From the sequence record KM411958.1: a stretch of DNA of 64,000 nt, one strand, 5' to 3'. The position numbers were made by a program, and so were the translations under genes. A model generated the notes under the pieces. That model made no database searches. It was not told the DNA's origin and was given only the letters and a program-made list of their open reading frames with translations. The stretch's first letter is position 1. Every line of letters starts with the position of its first letter. Shown one piece after another: positions 551 through 16,068 of this stretch. This DNA is from Pseudomonas phage RWG.

Positions 551-576
551 GCGTACTCCGTACGCTTTTTGCATTT
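549..576 (+). terminator. rho-independent terminator, hairpin AGCGTAC-TCC-GTACGCT followed by a T-run
   Basis: Perfect 7-bp stem with a 3-nt loop, then TTTTTGCATTTT. Confidence 0.6.
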
Positions 577-2609: not shown

Positions 2610-3130
2610 TGATGATGATGAGCGAAGACAAGTTCCAATACGAGATCTCTGCCATGAAGAGCAAGATGCAGCGATTGCGTCGTCGGGTAGAAGTTCTCAA
2701 CAACAAGCGAGATATCCTCCTCGAAGATATCGATGCAACCAACAAGATGGTGGAAAACCTCAGCGGTCAGGTTGAAACGCTGTTACGGGAAGCCAACAAG
2801 GTCAAGGGTCCGGTCATGCAACCGGGTCGTCTACACCAGAGCGACGTACTGCTCACCGGCCAGAACATCCAGGGTATGATGGACTCTGGGGAAGCTGTCG
2901 CCCAATTCGAGGTGAAGAAGGGAGACGACCAGACCACCACCATCCTGAAAGATGCGGTGGTCACCCAGATGAGCAACAAGCTGGCTGAACTACTGGATGC
3001 CATCGGCTTCGGCAAGGAGCATGTTCAGAAGCATGGCCTGGACGAAACTGTCTACGATGCGTGCTTGTACATCCAGTCCCTGAAGGGCGGCGAGGCACTG
3101 CTGAACAATCTGCGTTCGATGCTGAAGTGA
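2609..3130 (+). CDS. hypothetical protein
   Basis: Start MMMMSEDKF placed just after the upstream stop. The upstream part of the tracked ORF overlaps the previous gene and was discarded. Confidence 0.55.
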   Translation: MMMMSEDKFQYEISAMKSKMQRLRRRVEVLNNKRDILLEDIDATNKMVENLSGQVETLLREANKVKGPVMQPGRLHQSDVLLTGQNIQGMMDSGEAVAQFEVKKGDDQTTTILKDAVVTQMSNKLAELLDAIGFGKEHVQKHGLDETVYDACLYIQSLKGGEALLNNLRSMLK

Positions 3131-3351
3131 TCAGCGACAAGCTCCGCAAAGAATTCGAAGAAGAGTACCGCCACTGTGTGTGGTCCTTCGCCGGGGTAGT
3201 CATCACCCAGGAAGAACTGGCGAGTAAGCGTAGTCGTCTCGGAGACTACGCTGACAACCCTTTGATTCATGGGTTCTTCCGAGGCTGGCTGGCAGGCCGC
3301 TTCGGTATAGAAGGGATGATGTACCTCACAGGTGAACAGGCTATTCATTAG
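3127..3351 (+). CDS. hypothetical protein (GTG start overlapping the upstream stop)
   Basis: GTGA overlap at 3127-3130. No internal ATG. Followed by a terminator. Confidence 0.45.
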   Translation: MISDKLRKEFEEEYRHCVWSFAGVVITQEELASKRSRLGDYADNPLIHGFFRGWLAGRFGIEGMMYLTGEQAIH

Positions 3352-3392
3352 CGTACTCCGTACGCTCTTGTCCTGTTTATTCTTTCTTTCAT
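3352..3392 (+). terminator. second copy of the AGCGTAC-TCC-GTACGCT hairpin plus T-rich tract
   Basis: 17-nt perfect hairpin identical to 549-565, followed by CTTGTCCTGTTTATTCTTTCTTTC. Confidence 0.55.
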
Positions 3393-3594
3393 TGGTTTAG
3401 GAGCAAGTGCCATGCATTAGCGTTGATCATTTAACTAACTCCCTGCGCATAGCGTCGCATAAGGCGAGACAGTCTAAGTGGACTATTAGTACATAAAGAG
3501 AATGCCGAGTTTCCAAACTGCACAGGATGCAGTCCCTGAGTAACTGTCGGCATTCTACTGTGTGTATTAAACCAAGAATTAAATAGGAGAAGCT

Positions 3595-3780
3595 ATGCAG
3601 TTCAGCGATCTCAGTCCGGTGGAACAAGCACTCTACCCAACCCACAGTTCCTTAAAAGAAGCCCTCGAAGAGGCAAGGCATCTGCTTCCCGAGGGCAGTC
3701 ATCATGACTTCATGCGAGCCATGATGGGTTACCACAACACCCTACTCCTATTCGTAGGGGAATGGACTCCATCCACCTAG
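3595..3780 (+). CDS. hypothetical small protein
   Basis: GGAG RBS. 61 aa. Sits after a ~240-bp non-coding region. Confidence 0.4.
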   Translation: MQFSDLSPVEQALYPTHSSLKEALEEARHLLPEGSHHDFMRAMMGYHNTLLLFVGEWTPST

Positions 3781-3807
3781 TAGTTTAAGTCTACAGGAGA
3801 CTACTCA

Positions 3808-4641
3808 GTGTCCCAAGCCAATAAGAAAACTATCGAGCGGATTGGTAAGATCCTGCTCATCTTCAAAGCGTCCGAAGGGGAGATCCGTCCCCACTTCTGG
3901 CTGACCGGCCCTTCTGGTTCGGGCAAGTCCTTCAACATCATGGACCAGTGCAATCGCCTGGACATCATGCTGCCTATGACCGAGGTTAACTGTGCCTCGC
4001 TGACCAAGGAAGGCTACTCCGGCCTCAGCTTGAGCAAGGCACTGGCCCCTCTGGCTACCCTCAGTAACGTCCCCAACGTGGTCTTCTGCGACGAGATGGA
4101 TAAGCTGTTCCTCTCTGGCAATTCCAACGACAGCCACGCCAACGAGATCAGCATCGGCGTCCAGAACGAGTTCCTGCGAGTGCTGGAAGGTAGTACTACT
4201 CAGACCTTCGGCGACTACGGCAAGTACAACACCGTCAGCGTCGAGCGTTCCCTGTTCATCTTCGCCGGTGCCTTCAATGGCCAGGAGAACATGGACGCCA
4301 CCGAACTGCTGAAGTGCGGCGTCAAGACCGAGTTCATCGGTCGCACTGGCTTGGTCTACAACCTGGAGAAACCGACCATGGAAGCCTTGGTCCAGTACCT
4401 CAAGGAATCGGAACTGTGGGCGAACTACCGCTCGCTGTTCCCGAAAGAAGACCACAAGAAAGCCGAGAAATGGCTGATCAAGGAGATCGGACGCCAGTAT
4501 CCCGATAGCAACATCGGGGTGCGGTTGATCAACACCTTGATCCACCAGTACTACATCAACGCCGGCGAAGACTCCAAGCCTCAAGCAGGCAAGAAGGAAT
4601 TCGCCCGAACCCTCGACTTCAGCACTGGGAGGCTGAAATGA
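3808..4641 (+). CDS. ClpX/HslU-like AAA+ ATPase (single AAA module)
   Basis: Walker A GPSGSGKS. Walker B VVFCDEMDKL. The following segment ISIGVQNEFLRVLEGS matches ClpX GEGVQQALLKLIEGT. GTG start at 3808 with a CAGGAGAC RBS. Confidence 0.6.
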   Translation: MSQANKKTIERIGKILLIFKASEGEIRPHFWLTGPSGSGKSFNIMDQCNRLDIMLPMTEVNCASLTKEGYSGLSLSKALAPLATLSNVPNVVFCDEMDKLFLSGNSNDSHANEISIGVQNEFLRVLEGSTTQTFGDYGKYNTVSVERSLFIFAGAFNGQENMDATELLKCGVKTEFIGRTGLVYNLEKPTMEALVQYLKESELWANYRSLFPKEDHKKAEKWLIKEIGRQYPDSNIGVRLINTLIHQYYINAGEDSKPQAGKKEFARTLDFSTGRLK

Positions 4642-4880
4642 GCAAGTTGCAAGAACTACCTGTACTGATCGACCGTCCTGGGAACTACGTCACTCGTGAC
4701 GGTTCCCGCGTGGTGATCTTCACTGTCACCGAGCGTCCTGAAGGCTACTCCATGCTGACCTTCGACGCTCGTGGAAGCTACACCAGGGTCAACAACACCG
4801 CGAAGCCCGAATGCTGGCACATCAGCGGTCGGCTGCACGCTTTCCGGGAGCACCCGAAAGACGTAGTGGCCAAGGCTTAA
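4638..4880 (+). CDS. hypothetical protein
   Basis: ATGA overlap with the upstream gene. 80 aa. Confidence 0.5.
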   Translation: MSKLQELPVLIDRPGNYVTRDGSRVVIFTVTERPEGYSMLTFDARGSYTRVNNTAKPECWHISGRLHAFREHPKDVVAKA

Positions 4881-4911
4881 ACCAATCAAATCAATCGTTT
4901 AGGAGTTCACC

Positions 4912-5982
4912 ATGCACTTCCCCCAGGAACAAGAAGTATCCATTTTCGATGCCAAGTTCATTGCCGAAGGTTTCCTGCGTGCCGGCCTGAAGCCGATGAT
5001 CCACGGTTCGCCGGGCATCGGTAAGTCGGCAGTGGCCCGTCAGATCGCCAAGGAAAACAACCTGAAGCTGATCGACCTTCGTCTCACCCAGATGGACCCG
5101 GCTGACCTCAATGGTTTGCCGAACCTCTCCGGCAAGCGTGCCAAGTTCCAGGTATTCGAGCAGTTCCCACTGGTCGGCGACGAGCTTCCCGTCAATCCCG
5201 AAACCAACGAACCCTTCGCTGGTTGGTTGCTGTTCCTCGACGAACTGACCAGTGCGGATGACGACCGTCAAGCGGCGGCCTACAAGCTGATCCTGGATCG
5301 CCAGATCGGCAACGAGGATCTCCATCCGAAGTGCCTGGTCATGGGTGCCGGTAACCTCGAAACCGACGGTGCCATCGTCAACCCGATGTCATCGGCCCTC
5401 ATCAGTCGTCTGCACCACATCGTGGTTCGGAATGACCTGAAGCGTTGGCTTCAAGTCGTGGCTCCCAAGCTGGACATCGCCACCAAGGTACAAGCATTCC
5501 TGGAGTTCAGTCCCCGTGCGTTCTACACCTTCGATCCGCAGAACAGCGGTCGTGTCTATGCGTGTCCTCGTACCTGGGAAGACTTCTCGAAGTGGTTCCT
5601 GAAGATGTCCCCGGAGCAAGACCCTCGTGCCCTGGACGACATGCTGAACCTCGCTGCTGCCATGGGCATCATTGGTACCGTGGCCACTGACTTCAAGGCG
5701 TTCCTGGCCTACTTCGGTCGCCTGCCGAGCCTGGAAGAGATCCTGACTTCCCCGAGCACGATCTACGTGCCGAAGGATGAGCCGGGTCTGATGTTCGCCA
5801 TGTGTTCGATGCTGGCGGATAACGCCAAGGTGGACAACATCGAGAAGATCCTGATCTTCCTCGACCGGTTCAACCCGGACCACATGGTGATCACTCTGCG
5901 TATGGCTTGCCAGCGTAACAAGAGTCTGATTCAGAACCCGCGTATTTCGGAGTGGGTGAAGAAGAACCTGAACATGTTCTAA
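4912..5982 (+). CDS. MoxR-like AAA+ ATPase (AAA_5 family)
   Basis: Walker A MIHGSPGIGKSAV. Walker B LLFLDELT. Size and downstream VWA partner are typical of MoxR/CobS-type ATPases. Confidence 0.7.
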   Translation: MHFPQEQEVSIFDAKFIAEGFLRAGLKPMIHGSPGIGKSAVARQIAKENNLKLIDLRLTQMDPADLNGLPNLSGKRAKFQVFEQFPLVGDELPVNPETNEPFAGWLLFLDELTSADDDRQAAAYKLILDRQIGNEDLHPKCLVMGAGNLETDGAIVNPMSSALISRLHHIVVRNDLKRWLQVVAPKLDIATKVQAFLEFSPRAFYTFDPQNSGRVYACPRTWEDFSKWFLKMSPEQDPRALDDMLNLAAAMGIIGTVATDFKAFLAYFGRLPSLEEILTSPSTIYVPKDEPGLMFAMCSMLADNAKVDNIEKILIFLDRFNPDHMVITLRMACQRNKSLIQNPRISEWVKKNLNMF

Positions 5983-5993
5983 AGGAGAATCCA

Positions 5994-6512
5994 GTGAGTG
6001 GTCGATGGGAACTTTTTATGGTTCGTCAAGAAGACCTCACAGGTCAAGCAATAGTTGACGAGTATGCAAACAGCGACTCCCCCAATCGACTACTCACTGG
6101 AGATTTCGAAGGCTGGAGAGTTAGCATCTATGAAAAAGGTATCCAGAAAGGGATCAAGTTCGGTACTAAATCAGTACTAGAAAAACTAGCATCTGAATTT
6201 TGTCCGTACGTAGTTACCGTTAAGCCCCCAGACGGCTCATATGTAACACCTGGTCTTTATGTGGGTCACTGCCGTAATAGTGAAAGCCAATACAACCAGA
6301 GTTACTCTCGACTAGGTGGTACCGCAGCTTCAATTAATGAAGTGGTGGAGCTAATAAGAATAACCAATCCACTAAATGGTCACTGGATTTTTGATGAAGA
6401 AGAAGTTTTCGTGGCCCAGTCTCTGGCTGTTCCTTCCTTAATACCTGAAACCCACAATCAAGTTGAGTGGTGCAAATTCGCTAAGGCGATGGCCATCATC
6501 GGAGGTGAGTAA
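5994..6512 (+). CDS. hypothetical protein encoded by a compositionally atypical (low-GC) gene
   Basis: GTG at 5994 after AAGGAG. The ~520-bp segment is visibly AT-rich and uses A/T-ending codons, unlike the flanking genes. Confidence 0.5.
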   Translation: MSGRWELFMVRQEDLTGQAIVDEYANSDSPNRLLTGDFEGWRVSIYEKGIQKGIKFGTKSVLEKLASEFCPYVVTVKPPDGSYVTPGLYVGHCRNSESQYNQSYSRLGGTAASINEVVELIRITNPLNGHWIFDEEEVFVAQSLAVPSLIPETHNQVEWCKFAKAMAIIGGE

Positions 6513-7738
6513 TGACTGATCGTTCTGCTGAAGACATCGCCCTTTCCAAGGCGAAGATTCGCATCATCGGAGACTCCAAGGTGAGTTTCTACGCCAACAT
6601 CATGATGGGTCTGAAGTACGTGTGGGAAGAGGGCATGGGCACTGCTGCCATCGACGGCATCACCATGTTCATCGACCCCAAGTTCTTCATGTCCCTGGAC
6701 GAGATGAGCCGCAAGACCGTGATTCTCCATGAGATCGAACACGTCTGGCGGCATCACATCGGTAAGGTCCGTATGGGTGACCGTGACCACATGCTGTACA
6801 ACATTGCAGGGGACCACGTGATCAACAACAACCTCTTGGCTTGTGGCTATGGCCCCATCTCCTGGACCGACTACAAGACCGGTGCCAAGTGCAACTGGGT
6901 ATGCGATCCGAAGTTTGCCGACATGTCCACCGAGGAAGTCTACGATGCCCTGTACCAGGAACAGAAGTCGCAGAGCGGCGGCGGATCCGTTGCACCAGAC
7001 CAGGGCAACAGCGGTAACAACCCGGTACCGTTCGATGACATTTCCCGGCCTGTACCGACCAAGGACGATGGTACCCCCATGTCCGAGACGGAGATCCAGG
7101 GAGCCATCAACGATCTGATCCTCAGTGCTGCTACTGCTGCTCGTGCCAATGGCAACCCTGGGTCCATCCCAGGGGAGGTGCAGGTGTTCATCGACAGCCT
7201 GATGTTCCCCAAGCTGCCCCTGCCTCACCTCCTGCGTCAGTTCTTCCAGGTGGTAAAGCGTGGTGGCTTCACCTGGGCACGTCCCAATCGCCGGCTGATC
7301 AACAGGTACTACCTGCCCTCACGTCGCGGTAAGGCACTCCTGCGGATTGCCATCGCAATGGACCTGTCGGCATCGGTCAGCAACGAAGAGATCCGCCGCT
7401 ACATGTCGGAGATCGCCAACATCTTCGTCACGCTGAAACCAACACAGCTGGATATCATCCAGTTCGACGCTTCCATCCGTTCGGTGGATACGGTCCCCAA
7501 CCTCAATGCCCTCATGAACATGGAGTTGAAGGGCCGGGGTGGTACCTGCATTGCCCCTGTGATGCAGTGGGCCGCAGAGAACAAACCTCACGCATTGGTG
7601 GTGTTCTCTGATGGGGAGTTCCACCACTACAACGACAACCCAGGAGTACCGATTCTATGGTTGATTCACCCGTACAGCAGGAAATCGAACTGGAAAGCCC
7701 CGTACGGGCAAGTGATCCTGTTCGATCCGAAGGAGTAG
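6512..7738 (+). CDS. DUF2201-like protein: N-terminal HExxH metallopeptidase-like domain plus C-terminal VWA domain (MoxR partner)
   Basis: ILHEIEHVWRHH contains an HExxH motif. IAIAMDLSASVS matches the DxSxS MIDAS motif. Architecture matches VWA partners of MoxR ATPases. Confidence 0.65.
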   Translation: MTDRSAEDIALSKAKIRIIGDSKVSFYANIMMGLKYVWEEGMGTAAIDGITMFIDPKFFMSLDEMSRKTVILHEIEHVWRHHIGKVRMGDRDHMLYNIAGDHVINNNLLACGYGPISWTDYKTGAKCNWVCDPKFADMSTEEVYDALYQEQKSQSGGGSVAPDQGNSGNNPVPFDDISRPVPTKDDGTPMSETEIQGAINDLILSAATAARANGNPGSIPGEVQVFIDSLMFPKLPLPHLLRQFFQVVKRGGFTWARPNRRLINRYYLPSRRGKALLRIAIAMDLSASVSNEEIRRYMSEIANIFVTLKPTQLDIIQFDASIRSVDTVPNLNALMNMELKGRGGTCIAPVMQWAAENKPHALVVFSDGEFHHYNDNPGVPILWLIHPYSRKSNWKAPYGQVILFDPKE

Positions 7739-8994
7739 ACAAGCCTGCTCCCTTCGTACTGACGCCCGGCCAGGAAGCCGGGTTTCAGACCTTCATCAAC
7801 TTCTACTCCAACCCCGATGCCCAGGTAATGGTCCTCAAGGGCTGGTCAGGAACTGGCAAGTCCACTCTGATTCGTCGAATCCTCGACGAGATGGAGACTC
7901 TGGATCGCGCCCTGTCTACCCTGGACGACAACTTCGAGCCGTTCGAACCCCTGCTGACAGCCACCACAAACCAAGCATGTGATGCTCTGGCGGTGGCCAT
8001 GAAGGAGTTCAACCACGAGGTCAAGACCATCCACCGGGCATTGGGCCTTCGTCTCCGCACCGACTACAAGACGGGCAAGAGCGAACTGATGCCCATCCGC
8101 AACTTCGACATCCCTTTCCGCTGCCTGATCGTGGTTGACGAAGCCAGCTACATCGACCCTGCTCTGCTCCAGTTCTGCTTCGACCGGACGGACTGCTGCA
8201 AATTCATCTTCGTCGGCGACGACTGCCAGCTGACTCCGGTCGGTACCAACATCATGCCTGCCTTCGCCATGAAGGACATTGTGGTGGAACTTACCGAGGT
8301 CAAGCGGCAGAACAGTGGTCCCCTGTTGGACCTCTGCAACGCTTTCCGCCACACGGTGAAGACGGGTGAGTGGCCGAAGATCCAGTTGGACGGTGACCAG
8401 CTGATCCATGTACAACGGGACAAGTTCGTAGAGATGGCGGAAGAAGCCTTCCAGAACCCCCAGGTGCACGGCAGCACCAAGGTATTGGCTTACACCAATG
8501 CCTGTGTGACCGAGTACAACAAGCACTTCTCCCAACTGCTGCTTGGCTCCAGCGATCCGCAGGTAGGTCAGAAGATGCTGGTGAACGAAGCCGTCATCAA
8601 CAAGCATGCCCAGCTGTCCAACGGATCCGAGGTGGTGATCGAAGACATTCGGCCAACCAGAGAGTTTGACGTGGACGGCTACCTCGTGAAGCTGATGCAC
8701 CACAACAGCAGCTTCTTCCTGCCCAAGTCCCTCAAGGACCGCAAGGACCGGGAGAAGCTGGCTCGGAAAGAGGAGGATTACAAGATCCTCCAGCTGATCG
8801 ACCAGAACTGGGTAGACCTACGGCCTGCCTTCTCATGCACCGTGAACAAGTCGCAGGGCTCCACCTACGATACGGTGTTCATCGACCTGGACAACATCTG
8901 TGGCAAGGTACACCGCCCGAATGCACTGGCACGCCTTCTTTACGTTGGCTTCAGCCGAGCACGTAGACGGGTGGTCATGACAGGAGACATGTGA
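7657..8994 (+). CDS. SF1 DNA helicase (Dda/RecD-like)
   Basis: LTPGQEAGFQTFINF resembles the T4 Dda N-terminus. Walker A GWSGTGKST. Walker B IVVDEASY. Also FVGDDCQLTPV and NKSQGSTYDTVFIDL. The start overlaps the upstream gene by ~80 nt and is uncertain. Confidence 0.75.
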   Translation: MVDSPVQQEIELESPVRASDPVRSEGVDKPAPFVLTPGQEAGFQTFINFYSNPDAQVMVLKGWSGTGKSTLIRRILDEMETLDRALSTLDDNFEPFEPLLTATTNQACDALAVAMKEFNHEVKTIHRALGLRLRTDYKTGKSELMPIRNFDIPFRCLIVVDEASYIDPALLQFCFDRTDCCKFIFVGDDCQLTPVGTNIMPAFAMKDIVVELTEVKRQNSGPLLDLCNAFRHTVKTGEWPKIQLDGDQLIHVQRDKFVEMAEEAFQNPQVHGSTKVLAYTNACVTEYNKHFSQLLLGSSDPQVGQKMLVNEAVINKHAQLSNGSEVVIEDIRPTREFDVDGYLVKLMHHNSSFFLPKSLKDRKDREKLARKEEDYKILQLIDQNWVDLRPAFSCTVNKSQGSTYDTVFIDLDNICGKVHRPNALARLLYVGFSRARRRVVMTGDM

Positions 8995-9521
8995 TGCAAG
9001 CGAGAACCCCGGAGTTCCTGATCTTCAAGAGGGCAGTGAAGGACTGCTTGGATCACTTCCTCTATGCTCCGGTGAGGAAGGCTTTCCAGGAGCGGATGAA
9101 CGAACTGATCATCGCGGATGCTGTAGCCCGAGGTGATGGCATCCGGGCGTTCTGCCATCGTGGACGCAACTTCATGATCCCTGGAGAGAAGCCCAACTTC
9201 CGCTACTTTCCCAGGCTGAGTCGTAGCAACCGAGTACTCGTTGACAGTCTGTTGGCAGAGTACGACCCGGTGTTATCCGACGAGCGTGACTCTGTGCTCA
9301 CGTTCATCAGCCAAGTGCTCAACAAATCTGACGAACCGTCGGAGTACCTCAAGATGTTCCCAAGTGGTTTACGGGAGCCTCTGAAGAAGGCGTACGAGCA
9401 TTTTGGCTTGCCGGTAGATGGGGCGGAATTCCCGACCGAAAGTCCCATAGGTTCAAACCAAGAAGGCTGGGATAAGCTCTGCACCCGCGTTGGATTGAAC
9501 CTTGTACTAGGAGGACTGTGA
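8991..9521 (+). CDS. hypothetical protein
   Basis: ATGA overlap with the upstream gene. 176 aa. Confidence 0.55.
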   Translation: MMQARTPEFLIFKRAVKDCLDHFLYAPVRKAFQERMNELIIADAVARGDGIRAFCHRGRNFMIPGEKPNFRYFPRLSRSNRVLVDSLLAEYDPVLSDERDSVLTFISQVLNKSDEPSEYLKMFPSGLREPLKKAYEHFGLPVDGAEFPTESPIGSNQEGWDKLCTRVGLNLVLGGL

Positions 9522-12136
9522 TGAAGTACATCACCTGGGAAGAACAGGATAGCTACCCTGTGGCTATCCTGATCAAGGAGGCAGCGGTGAGTCGGTCAGC
9601 CGCTGAATCCACCTACATCAAGCAGCTGGAAGGGCTTGGTGTTCCCCGCAAGAATGTCATCGTGCTCTCTTTGGATTACGAGGGCAAGAAGGTATCTGCC
9701 AAGGCGATCAAGGAGTGCATCAAAGATCGTGACCAGCTACTGCGGGATCTCGGAGTACAGTATGCCTACGTGGCTGACTCCAAGTACTTCAAGGAGTGGA
9801 CCAAGCGGAAGACGGACGCCGACTTCGGCAACCTGTCGCCCCCTGCTGGCTACGACCCTGGATACCTGGTGACTCCGGGCGTGAACCATCAGGTGCTGCT
9901 GTTCGATCCGGGTCAGATGCACAAGCTCAGCCGTGGCTTCAAAGCCATCGTTGACCATGCCAATGGTGTGTATCGGCCTGTCGGATCTGACCTGCTGCAC
10001 AATGTCACGTACATCTACCGGGGCCATGTCAGCCAAGCCAGGGAAGCACTGGCCAGGCTCATGGACAAGCCGGAGATATCCTGTGATATCGAGGGCTTCA
10101 GCCTCAGCATGTTCGACTCAGGCATTGCCACCATTGGCTTCGCCTGGAGTGAGCATGATGCTGTACAGATCCAGTGTGACTACAGAGAGATGATCCAGGA
10201 CGAGAACAAGCACCACGGTTATTACGAGCCGAACGCAGAGATGCGGGAAGTGCTCAAGTGGTTCTTCACCGAGTACCCTGGGCGAATCATCTACCACCGT
10301 GCAAACCATGACGTGAAGGTTCTGATCTACACCCTCTTCATGGAGCATGACCTCGACAAAGAGGGTATGCACCGTGGATTGGAGATCATGACTCCACGGA
10401 TGGACGATACCAAGATCATTGCGTATCTAGCACTGAACTCAACCGCTGATGTCAGCTACTCCCTGAAAGACCTGGGGCAGGAACATGCGGGTAACTGGGC
10501 ACAGGACGAGATCAAGGACATCCGGCTGATTCAGCTGGACGATCTCATGAAGTACAACGCGGTGGATGCGGTGACGACCGTATGGGTGAAGAACAAGTAT
10601 TACCCCATCATGGTGCAAGACCAGCAGGAAGCTCTCTACCACGGCCTGTTCAAGGACAGCTTGGACCTGATCATTCAGATGGAACTCGTGGGCATGCCTA
10701 TGAATCCCCGGAAGATCACAGAGGTCAATACTGAACTGAACAATCTGCGGGACGGCTACCACAATACTGTGATGAGCCATCCCGCAGTCGCCAAGGTAGA
10801 GGTGCTGATTCAAACCAGTGAGATGGAGAAGGCCAATGCCAAGCTGAAGACTATCCAGCATCCGCTGAGCAAGTTTTCGCACATTCGGTTCAACCCCAAC
10901 TCTGGCCCGCAAGTGGCTCGTCTGCTGCATGAAGTCCTCGACCTTCCTGTACTGGACGTAACGGCTACCAAGCAGCCCTCCACCAGTGGGGGCACGCTGA
11001 AGAAGCTGCTGAACCACATCAAGGCGGAGCCCTACAAGGATCTAATCCAGGCTCTGATGGACTTGGGTGCCGTGGAAAAGGTCATCTCTGCCTTCATGCC
11101 AGCCTTCAAGGCGGGTCGAATGAAGGCGGACGGAATGATGTACCTACATGGCTCCTTCAACCTTGGAGGAACCATCTCTGGGCGGCTGTCCTCATCCGAT
11201 CCCAACCTGCAAAACCTTCCGGCTGGCTCGACCTATGGCAAGCTGGTGAAGTCTCTCTTCTGTGCACCCCCCGGCTTCCTCTTCGGAGGGGCGGACTTCG
11301 CTGCACTGGAAGACCGGATCAACGCCCTGCTCACTCAAGACCCGAACAAAATCAAGGTGTACACCGATGGCTACGATGGCCACTCGATGCGTACCTTTGC
11401 GTTCTGGCCGGACAAGTGTGATGGGATCGTAGACACGGTTGACTCCATCAACTCGATCCAGAAGGTCTACCCAGACCTGCGAAGCAAAGCCAAGACTCCA
11501 CACTTCCTGCTCCAGTATGGGGGCAGTTGGATGGGTCTGGTGCGGCAGGTAGGTTTCTCGGATGAAGAAGCCCAGGAGATCGAAACCAACTACAACAAGC
11601 TCTATCGCGTAAGCAATGAGTGGGTGGCTGGTGAGATCGACAAAGCAACCAAGACGGGCTACGTGGAACTGGCCTTCAACCTGCGGCTGAGAACGCCGCT
11701 GTTGGGGTCCACCATTCTTGGCTTGAAGGCGACTCCCAAGGAGGCTGCTGCTGAATCCCGCAGTGCGGGTAATGCGGTGTCCGGCCAGTCCTGGGGTCTA
11801 CTGACCAACCGTGCTGCTGTGGAATTCCGCAAGCTGCTACTGGCCAGCCCCTACAAGCTGAAGGTAGAGATCATCTCTCTGATCCACGATGCGATCTACG
11901 TGATGTGGCCAGACGATCCTGATGTCACTGTGTGGGTCAACAACACGCTCTGCAAGTGCATGGCGTGGCAGGAAGACCCCAAGATCAATGACAAGCGGGT
12001 TCCATTGGGGGCTAACCTGGACATCTTCTGGCCCAGTTGGCGTGAAGCCTGCACCCTGGACTACCCCATCACCAAGGAACGCCTCATTGAGCAATGCAGG
12101 GAACATGCTGCTGCTCTCAAGGAGAAGGCCAAGTGA
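9518..12136 (+). CDS. family A DNA polymerase with 3'-5' exonuclease domain
   Basis: Exo motifs CDIEGFSL and YNAVDAV. Pol motif A ADFAALEDR, motif B RSKAKTPHFLLQYGG, motif C LIHDAIYV. Confidence 0.9.
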   Translation: MMKYITWEEQDSYPVAILIKEAAVSRSAAESTYIKQLEGLGVPRKNVIVLSLDYEGKKVSAKAIKECIKDRDQLLRDLGVQYAYVADSKYFKEWTKRKTDADFGNLSPPAGYDPGYLVTPGVNHQVLLFDPGQMHKLSRGFKAIVDHANGVYRPVGSDLLHNVTYIYRGHVSQAREALARLMDKPEISCDIEGFSLSMFDSGIATIGFAWSEHDAVQIQCDYREMIQDENKHHGYYEPNAEMREVLKWFFTEYPGRIIYHRANHDVKVLIYTLFMEHDLDKEGMHRGLEIMTPRMDDTKIIAYLALNSTADVSYSLKDLGQEHAGNWAQDEIKDIRLIQLDDLMKYNAVDAVTTVWVKNKYYPIMVQDQQEALYHGLFKDSLDLIIQMELVGMPMNPRKITEVNTELNNLRDGYHNTVMSHPAVAKVEVLIQTSEMEKANAKLKTIQHPLSKFSHIRFNPNSGPQVARLLHEVLDLPVLDVTATKQPSTSGGTLKKLLNHIKAEPYKDLIQALMDLGAVEKVISAFMPAFKAGRMKADGMMYLHGSFNLGGTISGRLSSSDPNLQNLPAGSTYGKLVKSLFCAPPGFLFGGADFAALEDRINALLTQDPNKIKVYTDGYDGHSMRTFAFWPDKCDGIVDTVDSINSIQKVYPDLRSKAKTPHFLLQYGGSWMGLVRQVGFSDEEAQEIETNYNKLYRVSNEWVAGEIDKATKTGYVELAFNLRLRTPLLGSTILGLKATPKEAAAESRSAGNAVSGQSWGLLTNRAAVEFRKLLLASPYKLKVEIISLIHDAIYVMWPDDPDVTVWVNNTLCKCMAWQEDPKINDKRVPLGANLDIFWPSWREACTLDYPITKERLIEQCREHAAALKEKAK

Positions 12137-13551: not shown

Positions 13552-16068
13552 ATGCAGGTAACTCATCAGAAAGACTACGCCACTCACGTTGTGATAGGCG
13601 GCAAGCAAGCAATTTCCATGGGCATCAGTGATGACCCGGCCTTCTTCCAAGTTCTGTCGAGTTCCCTGTACACGGACAAGATCCTTGCCGTTGTTCGGGA
13701 AACTCTCTGCAACGCCTTCGATGCCCACAAGATGGCGGGCATCGAGAAAGAGACTCCGGTCGAGATCACCCTCAAGGACGACGAATTCGTCATCCGTGAC
13801 TTCGGCCCTGGTATACATCCCGACGACGTGGGCACCATTTACGGTGTATACGGCGGCTCCACCAAGAAGCACGACGGCACCCAGACTGGTGGTTTTGGTT
13901 TGGGGTGCAAGTCCCCCTTCGCCTACGTGGACAACTTCCAGGTGACCATTCACCACGAAGGCAAGACCAACGTCTACCGCATGCAGAAAGCCTCCATCCA
14001 GAACGGCGGACGACCGGCGATCACTCCTGTGGTCACGGACATTCCTACCGACCAGACCGGTCTGGAAGTACGGATCAACATCAAGAACGAAGACGTACGT
14101 CGATTCGGTACGCTGATTCGCCGTATCGTGGCCAACGCCGAGATGCTGGCCAACTTCAACGGGGTGAAGCTGCCCACCCTGCCCTTCTCCCAGGTGACCG
14201 AAGACTGGTCCATCGCTACCGAGCAGGTGCTCGAATACAACGGCCACATCATCTGTGTCCGCTATGGTGATGTCATCTATCCTGTAGAGCGGGATGAGTT
14301 CATCGCCGAGGTGTACGATCCTGTGCACAAGTTCGTGAACTCTCTGCCTGGCAACGTCAACGTGCTGGTGCTACAAGCCAAACCGAACTCGGTGTCGATC
14401 ACACCGTCTCGGGAAGCGCTGTCCATGGAAGACCACACCCGCAAGACTCTTCTTCAGCTGCTCAACAAATTCCTCCGTGCAACGCGGAACATCAAAAAGG
14501 AACGCAGCGACATCCTGGCACAGTCCTGCGAAGAACTGGTGCAGGCCAGGAAAGGTGCGATGGTGCAGCCCGAAGAAGTAAATGCTAATCGTGTGCTCGT
14601 GAGTTCCATGCGTGGGTCTAAGCTTTGTACCAAGGGACTCATGTCTACCATGGAAGAGGTTGGCTTGAGCCAGCTGTACCATTCGAATAGCCGGGATGAA
14701 AAGGAGAACTTCAAGACCCTGCTGCAACAGCTTTCCCTCATCGGAAAGCAGCCGCGAAACCAAGGAAACACCCTGTACCCTTCGCTCATCCGGCTGCTGA
14801 AGAAGGTTGGGATGGCAGCTGCCTACCATCACTACGATAGCGCCACCTTCGAGAACCTCACGAAGTTCCGGAAGGATTCCTGGCAGGCCCTGGCAGTACG
14901 CAAGTGGGGCCAGAAGCACCTGGTTTCCAAGCTGTTGCCTCTGATCCACGAAGAAGGGCTGTGCCCCACTCGGCTGATCTGGTACGGCGCTGGTCGTCAC
15001 CTGCACAACGGGGATTCTGTTCGGAACTACAACACCCACAATGGGTATCCGTTGGTTTCGTACTGGTCGAAGAATCCTATGTCCTATGTGCCACTGTTCC
15101 GTCGCTGTATTGTCCTGACGCACAGCCGTCGTGACATCCATAGCCGTGTGGAGGATCTCGACGAGTGGGTAGGTGGTTACAGTGCTGACGACTCTCTCAT
15201 CGCTTACGTGGTTCCGCGTAGCGTGAAGAAGGTGGAGGAAGCCAGGAAAGCCCTGAGTACTCTGAAGGGCTGGGAAGTACTGGACCTGACCAAGGAAGCT
15301 GAGGTAATCGAGTACGACTCGAAGATCAGTGCTGTCCCAGTCGTGTCCAAGCCAAAGAAGAAGGGCTATCCGATGCTCTCGGCTTGTCATAGCAACGGCA
15401 TATTCTCCCTGGAGATGGCACGTACTGAGAACGTAGCTCGGGTGGAGAATCCAGCTTACTACGTACGCCTCAACACCAAGAGCGACTACTACGTGCGTAA
15501 GTGTGTTCGTGGTTTGGACAAGACTTGCTCTGCCTACCTGCTGAAGAACTACGGCAACTTGGGTGCAGTCGTGTACAACGAAACCCAGGAAACCAACATG
15601 GAGAAGAAGGGCATCAAAAGTGCTCGTGACTTCCTCCTGGAAAAGTTCCTGGAAGAGGCGAACAAACCTGAGTTCATCAAGGCTTGCTCGCTGCGCTACG
15701 ACATGCTGGTTCAGGTTACAAAGGATTCGGACCAAGTAGACCTGGTTCGTACCATGATGGCGGTCAAAGAATGTCGTGATGACTTCAAGCTGCCTGAGCC
15801 GGAAACAGCTGATGCTGAGAACTTGCTCAATACCATGTGTGCTATGGACCCCAGGTTCTTCACTGAAGACCAGAAGGTAGCCTTGGGCAAGATAGCGGAA
15901 AAGATCAAGGCTGTTCCGGGCGATAAGAAAGTGCTTGGCATGCTGAAGAAGATCGCAGGAGCACCATTGATTACACTTCTGAACATCTCAGAAGTACGTG
16001 CTGCTTTACGCGATAAGAAGACTGTCGCTTCGACAGTCAAACTACTGAAAACAGCTATTCGTGGCTGA
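13552..16068 (+). CDS. rIIA: rIIA protein (N-terminal GHKL ATPase fold)
   Basis: Colinear with T4 rIIA. [32 protein letters not shown] matches T4 [40 protein letters not shown] matches [25 protein letters not shown] matches [33 protein letters not shown] matches IAPSREALSLDDRTRK. Confidence 0.9.
   Translation: [838 protein letters not shown]

What the first reader, a model, noticed from the sequence alone, without database searches (positions are those of the whole stretch)
3808..7738. Cluster of three AAA+ modules in the middle region, including a truncated ClpX/HslU-like ATPase
The 277-aa protein at 3808-4641 has Walker A GPSGSGKS, Walker B VVFCDEMDKL and a following segment ISIGVQNEFLRVLEGS that closely parallels ClpX (DEIDKI...GEGVQQALLKLIEGT). 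It lacks the ClpX N-terminal zinc-binding domain and has a short C-terminal region. A phage-encoded stand-alone ClpX-like unfoldase module would be unusual. It could remodel host or phage complexes or hijack ClpP. It lies two genes upstream of the MoxR ATPase, its VWA/HExxH partner and a Dda-like helicase.
Basis: partly seen in the sequence, partly recalled or inferred. Interest (0 to 1): 0.55.

Follow-up and report, generated by a model that had tools for sequence, protein, structure and literature searches.

The report
Minimal ClpX-like ATPase of N4-like phages
This Pseudomonas N4-like phage gene encodes a compact, intact ATPase related to the bacterial unfoldase ClpX but lacking every part that links ClpX to its protease, so it most likely works alone; the gene is common in phages, already annotated, and its target is unknown.

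Summary
ORF 3808-4641 (277 aa) has the stated Walker A and Walker B motifs and the ClpX-like segment. Sequence profiles and a predicted structure both place it in the ClpX/HslU clade of AAA+ ATPases.

The interpretation needs correction on four points:
- **Not unusual.** The window is a Litunavirus (about 100% identical to PEV32, DEV and Ab09). The gene belongs to phrog_5534, matches 201 phage records, and is already labelled "ClpX" or "Clp protease ATP-binding subunit" in GenBank.
- **Not a truncation.** It is a uniform 265-280 aa family. The catalytic residues K40, D95/E96, R179 and R239 are invariant in 195 of 195 members. pN/pS within Litunavirus is about 0.01-0.02.
- **ClpP hijack is disfavoured.** The zinc-binding domain, the RKH loop and the whole IGF loop that docks ClpP are absent. 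There is no HslU-type I-domain or C-terminal tail. The window encodes no ClpP or HslV.
- **Pore-1 tyrosine is not a family feature.** It is Tyr in 5 of 195 members and Thr in 137.

The cluster holds two AAA+ ATPases, not three. The second is the N4 gp24-like AAA_5 ATPase, which sits near a VWA/HExxH partner. The helicase is SF1B.

In several phage lineages the gene sits in replication or nucleotide-metabolism modules. My best reading is a protease-independent hexameric remodeller that acts in the middle phase. The client is unknown.

The parts
3595..3780 (+). 61-aa DUF6833 protein, the gene immediately upstream of the ClpX-like gene
   Evidence: Pfam DUF6833 at E 2.7e-40. An HMM finds homologues in 28 of the 83 related loci, all of them N4-like, and often directly upstream of the ClpX-like gene. 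It is absent from the stretch of phage N4 examined. It is not a universal partner.
3808..4641 (+). 277-aa ClpX/HslU-clade AAA+ ATPase (phrog_5534), consisting of an N-terminal helix, a large domain and a small domain and nothing else
3907..3930 (+). Walker A GPSGSGKS (aa 34-41)
   Evidence: K40 is present in 194 of 195 family members, the remaining row having a gap
4003..4029 (+). Pore-1 loop equivalent TKEGYSGLS (aa 66-74); aligns with ClpX TEAGYVGED
   Evidence: T66, E68, G72, S74 and K77 are invariant, but position 70 is T 137, L 30, I 11, V 7, Y 5, M 5 across 195 members.
4078..4101 (+). Walker B VVFCDEMD (aa 91-98); D95 and E96 correspond to ClpX D184 and E185
   Evidence: invariant in 195 of 195 members
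4114..4158 (+). Pore-2 loop region SGNSNDSHANEISIG (aa 103-117); the model is less confident here
   Evidence: The family consensus is SGNSNSxLAHExTNG. Litunavirus departs from it at several positions.
4207..4227 (+). FGDYGKY loop (aa 134-140), in place of the ClpX RKH loop and six residues shorter
4285..4293 (+). Site where the ClpX IGF loop (ClpX residues 258-290) would be; here a short linker around aa 160-162
   Evidence: hhalign and mafft alignments; two-segment HMMER alignments; in the model a 9-residue loop joins strand 148-154 to helix 164-169
4342..4344 (+). Arg finger R179 (ClpX R307, HslU R325)
   Evidence: invariant in 195 of 195 members
4522..4524 (+). Sensor-2 R239 (ClpX R370, HslU R393)
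   Evidence: invariant in 195 of 195 members
4638..4880 (+). 80-aa ORF whose start overlaps the ClpX-like stop by 4 nt (phrog_4781, unknown function)
   Evidence: Found only in the three Litunavirus loci among the 83 related loci, so it is not a conserved partner.
4912..5982 (+). 356-aa N4 gp24-like AAA_5 ATPase (MoxR/midasin clade)
   Evidence: Pfam AAA_5 at 24.9 bits against a cut-off of 22; phrog_1297; the family profile's best PDB match is a midasin AAA module at E 6.6e-9; aligns with N4 gp24
5952..6512 (+). 186-aa ORF (phrog_14291, unknown function) between the AAA_5 ATPase and the VWA protein
6512..7738 (+). 408-aa N4 gp25-like protein: DUF2201_N putative metallopeptidase domain (HEIEH at aa 73-77, nt 6728-6742) plus DUF2201 VWA-like domain
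   Evidence: (E 2.8e-29 and 1.2e-23)
7657..8994 (+). N4 gp37-like SF1B (Dda/RecD2-type) helicase, not AAA+; the true start is probably at about 7828
   Evidence: The RefSeq homologue is 388 aa.

Best explanation
ORF 3808-4641 encodes a minimal, catalytically intact AAA+ ATPase derived from the ClpX/HslU clade. It keeps the motor: Walker A and B, the sensor-like Glu, a trans-acting Arg finger (which implies a ring oligomer, presumably a hexamer), sensor-2, and conserved axial loops. It has lost every element that couples ClpX or HslU to adaptors and to a peptidase. It therefore most likely works as a stand-alone, protease-independent ATP-driven remodeller, in the way ClpX alone acts on the MuA transpososome or on TrfA. 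It would be expressed with the middle genes and act on a protein or nucleoprotein assembly connected with phage DNA replication or nucleotide metabolism. Shown here: clade membership, the missing modules, conservation, and genomic context. Inferred: ring assembly, remodelling activity, timing and client.
For: - Clade: NCBIfam ClpX at E 2.5e-14 and HslU at 3.7e-9; family profile against PDB gives ClpX 4.4e-25 then HslU 2.6e-17; hhalign 99.1%; AF2 model pLDDT 83.9 with all top 50 Foldseek hits being ClpX.
- Intact motor: D95, E96, R179 and R239 are invariant in 195 of 195 members and K40 in 194 of 195; E127 is invariant in the 35-sequence alignment. pN/pS is 0.01-0.02 among Litunavirus genomes.
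- Uncoupled from peptidases: there is no Cys in the N-terminal 33 aa. ClpX residues 258-290, which include IGF, have no counterpart. The RKH loop is replaced by GDYGKY. There are only about 50 residues between Walker A and Walker B, so there is no HslU I-domain. The chain ends at the terminal beta-strand equivalent, so there is no HslU-type tail. tblastn finds no ClpP or HslV homologue in the 64-kb window.
- Context: in N4-like loci the gene lies between the RNAPII genes and gp24L, gp25L, the helicase and the DNA polymerase. In a second lineage of about 55-kb phages it lies among primase-polymerase/DUF3987, RNase H, ThyX, ligase, Sak4-like ATPase, a DnaJ-domain protein and a DEAD helicase. In other contigs it lies next to NrdD, PolA and a 3'-5' exonuclease. 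One homologue is fused in frame to RNase H.
- Transcription: there is no sigma-70-like promoter in 3000-9600. In the related phage LUZ7 the middle genes are mainly replication genes (PMC9163698).
Against: - No experiment bears on activity, oligomeric state or client. I found no functional study.
- The pore-1 aromatic residue needed for ClpX translocation is Thr in 70% of the family, so canonical polypeptide threading may not apply to the family.
- No partner gene is conserved across the whole family, and phage N4 itself lacks the gene in the region examined. It is therefore an accessory function.
- Linking it to replication by gene neighbourhood is weak evidence in phages.
Confidence: 0.55

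Rival explanations
1. ClpP-coupled unfoldase: the phage ATPase docks on host ClpP and redirects proteolysis.
For: It is the closest relative of ClpX by sequence and fold. GenBank records label it as a Clp protease ATP-binding subunit.
Against: The IGF loop, which is the established ClpP-docking element of ClpX, is deleted in every family member aligned. The NCBIfam ClpX score is 53 bits against a cut-off of 359. The protein is no closer to P. aeruginosa ClpX (9ndj, E 1.6e-9) than to other ClpX proteins. The window encodes no ClpP.
Confidence: 0.06
2. HslU mimic: a ring with six-fold symmetry and no IGF loops that activates host HslV.
For: HslU is the second-best family. HslU also lacks IGF loops.
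Against: HslV activation uses the HslU C-terminal tail (...EDLSRFIL), which lies beyond the last beta-strand. The phage protein ends at the strand equivalent (FARTLDF aligns with ClpX VVIDESVI), and it has no I-domain. It scores 36 bits against the TIGR00390 cut-off of 362.
Confidence: 0.03
3. Host-takeover or anti-defence unfoldase: the same stand-alone motor, but its clients are host proteins such as defence complexes or host replication or transcription factors, not phage replication assemblies.
For: The gene is accessory: it is absent from the stretch of N4 examined and present in several unrelated phage lineages. It sits among small early/middle ORFs of unknown function. The pore loops covary by lineage, with Litunavirus having Y70, L73, N112 and I116 where the consensus has T, N, H and N, as expected if the clients differ.
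Against: It gives no PADLOC hit. It shows no linkage to known anti-defence genes. Its neighbours are mostly replication or nucleotide-metabolism genes.
Confidence: 0.2
4. Not a polypeptide translocase: a ClpX-derived ring whose polar, Lys/His-containing axial loops bind nucleic acid or act as an ATP-dependent switch or loader in replication.
For: In 70% of members pore-1 position 70 is Thr. The family loops are rich in S, N, T, K and H: TKEGTSGNSLSK, SGNSNSxLAHExTNG and GDYGKY. One homologue is fused to RNase H and the gene is adjacent to RNase H in five loci. It lies in replication modules.
Against: I know of no ClpX/HslU-clade member that acts on nucleic acid. The loop composition is only suggestive. 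The Litunavirus protein itself has a more canonical Tyr and hydrophobic pore residues.
Confidence: 0.12
5. Decaying remnant of a captured host clpX with no function.
For: It is shorter than ClpX and lacks three ClpX modules.
Against: pN/pS is 0.01-0.02. The catalytic residues are invariant across 195 diverse members. Length is uniform.
Confidence: 0.02

Closest known systems
[quoted passage not shown]
   Same: Same AAA+ clade and fold, with large and small subdomains. It shares Walker A and B, the VQxxLLKxxEG helix, Arg finger R307 (here R179), sensor-2 R370 (here R239) and the position of the pore-1 loop (GYVG in ClpX, GYSG here). It is the best match by sequence, by profile and by structure.
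   Different: It has no zinc-binding N-domain, no RKH loop and no IGF loop. The small domain is compact. Identity to E. coli ClpX is 26%. It scores 53 bits against the equivalog cut-off of 359. The pore-1 Tyr is not conserved in its family. It therefore resembles ClpX acting alone, not ClpXP.
HslU
   Same: It is the second-best family. HslU also lacks IGF loops and shares the sensor-like Glu (E286, here E127), R325 and R393.
   Different: It has no I-domain between Walker A and Walker B and no HslV-activating C-terminal tail.
phrog_5534 and homologous 265-280 aa phage ATPases (Litunavirus, Luzseptimavirus, Klebsiella Pylas, Salmonella FSL SP-058, Erwinia S6, Vibrio and Proteus phages)
   Same: Full-length match at E 3.6e-149. 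Members share 45-55% identity, the same length and the same loops.
   Different: The Litunavirus subgroup has a more hydrophobic pore (Y70, L73, I116) than the family consensus (T, N, N).
ClpP-independent Clp/Hsp100 remodelling: ClpX on the MuA transpososome or TrfA, ClpA on P1 RepA, ClpB (named from established knowledge, not tested here)
   Same: These are ATP-driven remodelling reactions without degradation, acting on replication-initiation complexes of mobile elements. ClpB likewise lacks a ClpP-docking loop.
   Different: Those enzymes keep an aromatic pore-1 residue and N-domains that bind substrates or adaptors. Here specificity would have to come from the ring itself or from unknown partners.
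MoxR-VWA pairs / midasin (for the neighbouring gp24-like and gp25-like genes)
   Same: An AAA_5 ATPase lies next to a VWA-domain protein. The gp24-like profile's best PDB match is a midasin AAA module.
   Different: The MoxR-specific AAA_3 model scores below its threshold (16.2 bits against 27). The VWA protein also carries an HExxH DUF2201_N domain. Its function in N4-like phages is unknown.

Membership tests
ClpX | AAA+ large and small domains of the ClpX/HslU clade | tested here: met
ClpX | N-terminal C4 zinc-binding domain | tested here: not met
   Only about 27 residues, forming one helix, precede the AAA core. There is no Cys in the first 33 aa.
ClpX | IGF loop that docks on ClpP | tested here: not met
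   ClpX residues 258-290 have no counterpart, either here or in the 35-sequence family alignment.
ClpX | RKH loop at the pore entrance | tested here: not met
   It is replaced by a conserved, shorter FGDYGKY loop.
ClpX | Pore-1 loop GYVG with an aromatic residue | tested here: inconclusive
   This protein has GYSG. In the family, however, position 70 is Tyr in only 5 of 195 members and Thr in 137.
ClpX | Walker A and B, Arg finger, sensor-2 | tested here: met
   K40, D95/E96, R179 and R239 align with ClpX K125, D184/E185, R307 and R370.
ClpX | Score above the NCBIfam equivalog cut-off | tested here: not met
   53 bits against 359 for PRK05342; 48.5 bits against 370.75 for TIGR00382.
ClpX | Physical and functional coupling to ClpP | not testable with these tools
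   This needs biochemistry or multimer modelling. The window encodes no ClpP.
HslU | I-domain inserted between Walker A and Walker B | tested here: not met
   About 50 residues separate Walker A (aa 34-41) from Walker B (aa 91-98).
HslU | C-terminal tail that activates HslV | tested here: not met
   The chain ends at the equivalent of the last beta-strand.
phrog_5534 (short phage ClpX-like ATPases) | Full-length profile match | tested here: met
   E 3.6e-149, covering residues 1-275 against profile positions 1-273 of 273.
AAA_5 / MoxR-type ATPase (gene 4912-5982) | AAA_5 profile above its gathering threshold, with a neighbouring VWA partner | tested here: met
   AAA_5 scores 24.9 bits against 22. 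The best PDB match is midasin at E 6.6e-9. The DUF2201 VWA gene lies one ORF downstream. The MoxR-specific AAA_3 model is below its threshold.
AAA+ (gene 7657-8994) | AAA+ fold | tested here: not met
   It matches the SF1B helicase families RecD2 and Dda, and UvrD_C_2. The Pfam names 'AAA_19' and 'AAA_30' denote P-loop helicase domains.

The most novel reading that the evidence does not exclude
The phrog_5534 family is a previously undescribed functional class. It would be a ClpX-derived ring that has exchanged the aromatic pore paddle for conserved polar, Lys/His-containing loops, and that works in phage replication modules on a nucleoprotein or nucleic-acid substrate, without any protease. 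It would not be a polypeptide-threading unfoldase.
Probability: 0.12. Interest if true: 0.65.

Novelty: new variant of a known kind. Interest (0 to 1): 0.33.

Why it matters
[quoted passage not shown] It is probably wrong in its functional implication, because the protein lacks the parts needed to feed a protease. The family is widespread and strongly constrained, it recurs in replication modules of unrelated phages, and nothing is known about its function. It is therefore a tractable target: it is small, soluble-looking and has clear catalytic residues for trap mutants. It could reveal how phages use a stand-alone unfoldase-type motor. It is not a surprising discovery in itself.

Tried and rejected
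- **Conserved partner gene.** I clustered the ORFs of 83 related loci with BLAST and phmmer. Nothing is universal. DUF6833 is confined to part of the N4-like group, and the downstream 80-aa ORF is confined to Litunavirus.
- **C-terminal motif FQKTLxF/L.** I considered it as a beta-clamp-binding or peptidase-docking peptide. I rejected this as the primary reading because it aligns with the terminal beta-strand of the ClpX small domain (VVIDESVI), so a structural role suffices.
- **Defence or anti-defence link.** PADLOC gives no hit for the ClpX-like protein.
- **Literature.** Six searches found only homology-based annotation.
- **Phage-encoded peptidase.** tblastn with ClpP and HslV finds nothing in the window.
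- **Recent capture of host clpX.** The protein is no closer to P. aeruginosa ClpX than to other ClpX proteins.
- **Longer relatives.** Some are double-ring Hsp100-like proteins whose second ring resembles this family and also lacks a docking loop. I did not pursue this.


Full report
**Origin of the window.** Region 3500-9000 is 99.9-100% identical to Pseudomonas phages PEV32, vB_PaeP_DEV, CMS1 and Ab09, and 95-97% identical to LIT1 and other members of Litunavirus (Schitoviridae, N4-like). All genes of the finding lie on the + strand of the N4-like middle region, between the RNAPII genes and the DNA polymerase.

**Check of the observation.**
- ORF 3808-4641 starts at GTG, with AGGAG 8 nt upstream, and encodes 277 aa.
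- It carries GPSGSGKS (aa 34-41), VVFCDEMDKL (aa 91-100) and ISIGVQNEFLRVLEGS (aa 114-129).
- Pfam gives AAA and AAA_2.
- NCBIfam ranks ClpX first (E 2.5e-14) and HslU next (3.7e-9), both far below the equivalog cut-offs (53 bits against 359; 36 against 362).
- phmmer against PDB sequences returns ClpX proteins first (1um8, E 2.6e-13) and then HslU. A 35-sequence family profile gives ClpX 4.4e-25 and HslU 2.6e-17, with classic-clade AAA proteins much weaker.
- hhalign against E. coli ClpX gives probability 99.1%.
- An AlphaFold2 model built on the family alignment has mean pLDDT 83.9 and pTM 0.78, with a large and a small AAA+ subdomain. Its 50 best Foldseek matches in the PDB are all ClpX chains.

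**What is kept and what is missing relative to ClpX and HslU.** I took E. coli ClpX and HslU from MG1655 and confirmed the landmark residues on those sequences.
- Kept:
  - K40 (ClpX K125)
  - D95/E96 (ClpX D184/E185)
  - E127 (HslU E286)
  - R179 (ClpX R307, the Arg finger)
  - R239 (ClpX R370, sensor-2)
- Missing:
  - The zinc-binding domain. Only one helix of about 27 residues precedes the core, and it contains no Cys.
  - The RKH loop. It is replaced by a shorter, conserved FGDYGKY loop.
  - The whole IGF loop. ClpX residues 258-290 have no counterpart. In the model a 9-residue linker joins strand 148-154 to helix 164-169.
  - The HslU I-domain, because Walker A and Walker B are only about 50 residues apart.
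  - The HslU C-terminal tail. The conserved C-terminal FxxTLxF aligns with the terminal beta-strand of ClpX (VVIDESVI), and the chain ends there.
- tblastn with ClpP and HslV finds nothing in the window.
- From established knowledge, the IGF loop is the ClpP-docking element and the HslU tail is the HslV activator. Their absence makes a protease-coupled role unlikely.

**The family.**
- The protein matches phrog_5534 over its full length (E 3.6e-149; function unknown).
- The large protein database returns 1745 hits at E<=1e-3, led by 265-280 aa proteins of about 50% identity.
- An exhaustive profile search gives 73 representatives (clusters at 50% identity) at E<1e-30. These grade into ClpX-length proteins, which match in two pieces, that is, with the IGF gap.
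- tblastn finds matches in 201 phage records: Litunavirus at 97-99.6% identity, about 40-49% in other N4-like phages (Luzseptimavirus, Klebsiella Pylas, Salmonella FSL SP-058, Erwinia S6 and Rexella, Stenotrophomonas Philippe) and in Vibrio and Proteus phages, and about 22-26% in jumbo phages.
- Many records already call it ClpX or a Clp protease ATP-binding subunit, and so does one paper, by homology only.
- A phage-encoded ClpX-like module is therefore neither rare nor newly noticed.
- It is not a truncation. In 195 distinct members D95, E96, R179 and R239 are invariant, and K40 is present in 194 with one gap. Within Litunavirus pN/pS is 0.01-0.02.

**Axial loops.**
- The pore-1 loop is almost invariant (T66, E68, G72, S74 and K77 in 195 of 195 members), except at the position of ClpX Y153. 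There the counts are Thr 137, Leu 30, Ile 11, Val 7, Tyr 5 and Met 5.
- Litunavirus also differs from the consensus at L73 (Asn in 189), N112 (His in 179) and I116 (Asn in 128). The pore-1 and pore-2 loops therefore change together by lineage.
- The loops are clearly functional, but the family as a whole does not carry the aromatic paddle of canonical unfoldases.

**Genomic context.** I fetched 80 viral loci plus three contig places and compared their ORFs.
- About 37 loci are N4-like. Their order is DUF6833 small protein, ClpX-like gene, gp24-like AAA_5 ATPase, gp25-like VWA protein, SF1B helicase, PolA.
- Phage N4 itself has gp24, gp25, gp37 and gp39 but no ClpX-like gene in the 25 kb examined.
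- In a second lineage of about 55-kb phages the gene sits among a primase-polymerase/DUF3987 protein, DUF7173, RNase H, ThyX, ATP-dependent ligase, a Sak4-like AAA_24 ATPase, a DnaJ-domain protein and a DEAD helicase.
- In other contigs it lies next to NrdD, PolA, a 3'-5' exonuclease, NAMPT or a DUF2828/DUF7788 protein.
- One homologue is fused in frame to RNase H, and another carries an intein.
- No partner gene is conserved across the family.
- The region 3000-9600 has no sigma-70-like promoter and no + strand terminator-like site. This fits transcription by a phage polymerase. In LUZ7 the middle genes are mainly replication genes (PMC9163698).

**The rest of the cluster.**
- Gene 4912-5982 is N4 gp24-like. 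Pfam AAA_5 is just above threshold, and the family profile's best PDB match is a midasin AAA module (E 6.6e-9). This supports an AAA_5/MoxR-clade ATPase.
- Gene 6512-7738 has DUF2201_N with HEIEH and a DUF2201 VWA domain, which is the usual kind of partner for such ATPases.
- Gene 7657-8994 is an SF1B Dda/RecD2-type helicase, not AAA+. 'Three AAA+ modules' should therefore read two AAA+ ATPases plus a helicase.

**Mechanism.**
- The best-supported reading is a ring-forming, ATP-hydrolysing motor of ClpX ancestry that acts without a peptidase and remodels a client during the middle or replication phase. ClpX alone on the MuA transpososome or on TrfA, ClpA on P1 RepA, and the docking-loop-less ClpB are precedents from established knowledge.
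- Shown: clade, intact catalytic set, missing coupling modules, constraint, and context.
- Inferred: hexamer, remodelling activity, timing, and client.
- Rivals are a host-directed takeover or anti-defence unfoldase (0.2), a non-threading or nucleic-acid-directed motor suggested by the polar loops and the RNase H fusion (0.12), ClpP coupling (0.06), HslV activation (0.03) and a dead relic (0.02).

**Verdict.** The sequence observation is correct and the family assignment is right at clade level. The gene fails the membership tests for ClpX proper and for HslU, and the ClpP-hijack idea is disfavoured. The gene is already known and is a common accessory of phage replication modules. Its function has not been studied, and the current 'Clp protease subunit' label is probably misleading. 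Interest is moderate to low.

Noticed in passing
window 551-565 and 3351-3365 (+); variant at 15454-15468: An identical 15-nt hairpin, GCGTAC-TCC-GTACGC, occurs twice. Each copy lies directly after a stop codon and is followed by a T-rich tract. The second copy lies upstream of the DUF6833/ClpX-like gene block. These could be intrinsic terminators or the GC-rich hairpin promoters reported for N4-like LUZ7.
   Followed up: partly
L002 (GCA_029839225.1 contig JAOCAE010000006.1, 74381-95181): A complete N4-like middle-gene block (RNAPII, ClpX-like gene, gp24L, gp25L, helicase, PolA) lies inside a 284-kb contig of a Stutzerimonas stutzeri assembly. This is either an integrated or carried N4-like element, or a chimeric assembly.
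   Followed up: no
P0134; P0121 and L084:~7001-7795 (525-aa ORF): One family member carries an intein with an HNH domain inserted near the Walker A region. Another is an in-frame RNase H fusion to the ClpX-like module. RNase H is also the gene immediately upstream in five other loci.
   Followed up: partly
window 6512-7738: The gp25-like protein has DUF2201_N (HEIEH) plus a VWA-like DUF2201 domain. PHROG and RefSeq nevertheless name it 'HNH endonuclease', which looks like a propagated mislabel.
   Followed up: partly
window 4638-4880: The 80-aa ORF overlaps the ClpX-like stop codon by 4 nt, which suggests translational coupling. Some records label it 'cell division protein' without any Pfam or NCBIfam support. 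It is found only in Litunavirus among the 83 related loci.
   Followed up: partly
window 7657-8994: The longest helicase ORF starts at 7657 and overlaps the gp25-like gene by 82 nt. The RefSeq homologue is 388 aa, which corresponds to a start near 7828.
   Followed up: no
P0166, P0170, P0171, P0173, P0176 (600-990 aa): These are uncharacterised double-ring Hsp100-like proteins. Their second AAA+ ring is closer to this phage family (E 1e-45 to 1e-53) than ClpX itself is, and it also lacks a ClpP-docking loop. phrog_4339 may be the phage counterpart.
   Followed up: partly
L057, L059, L060 (145-150 kb viral contigs): In these large phage contigs the ClpX-like gene lies two to three genes downstream of a DUF2828/DUF7788 protein. 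The contigs contain no gp24L or gp25L homologue within 7 kb.
   Followed up: no
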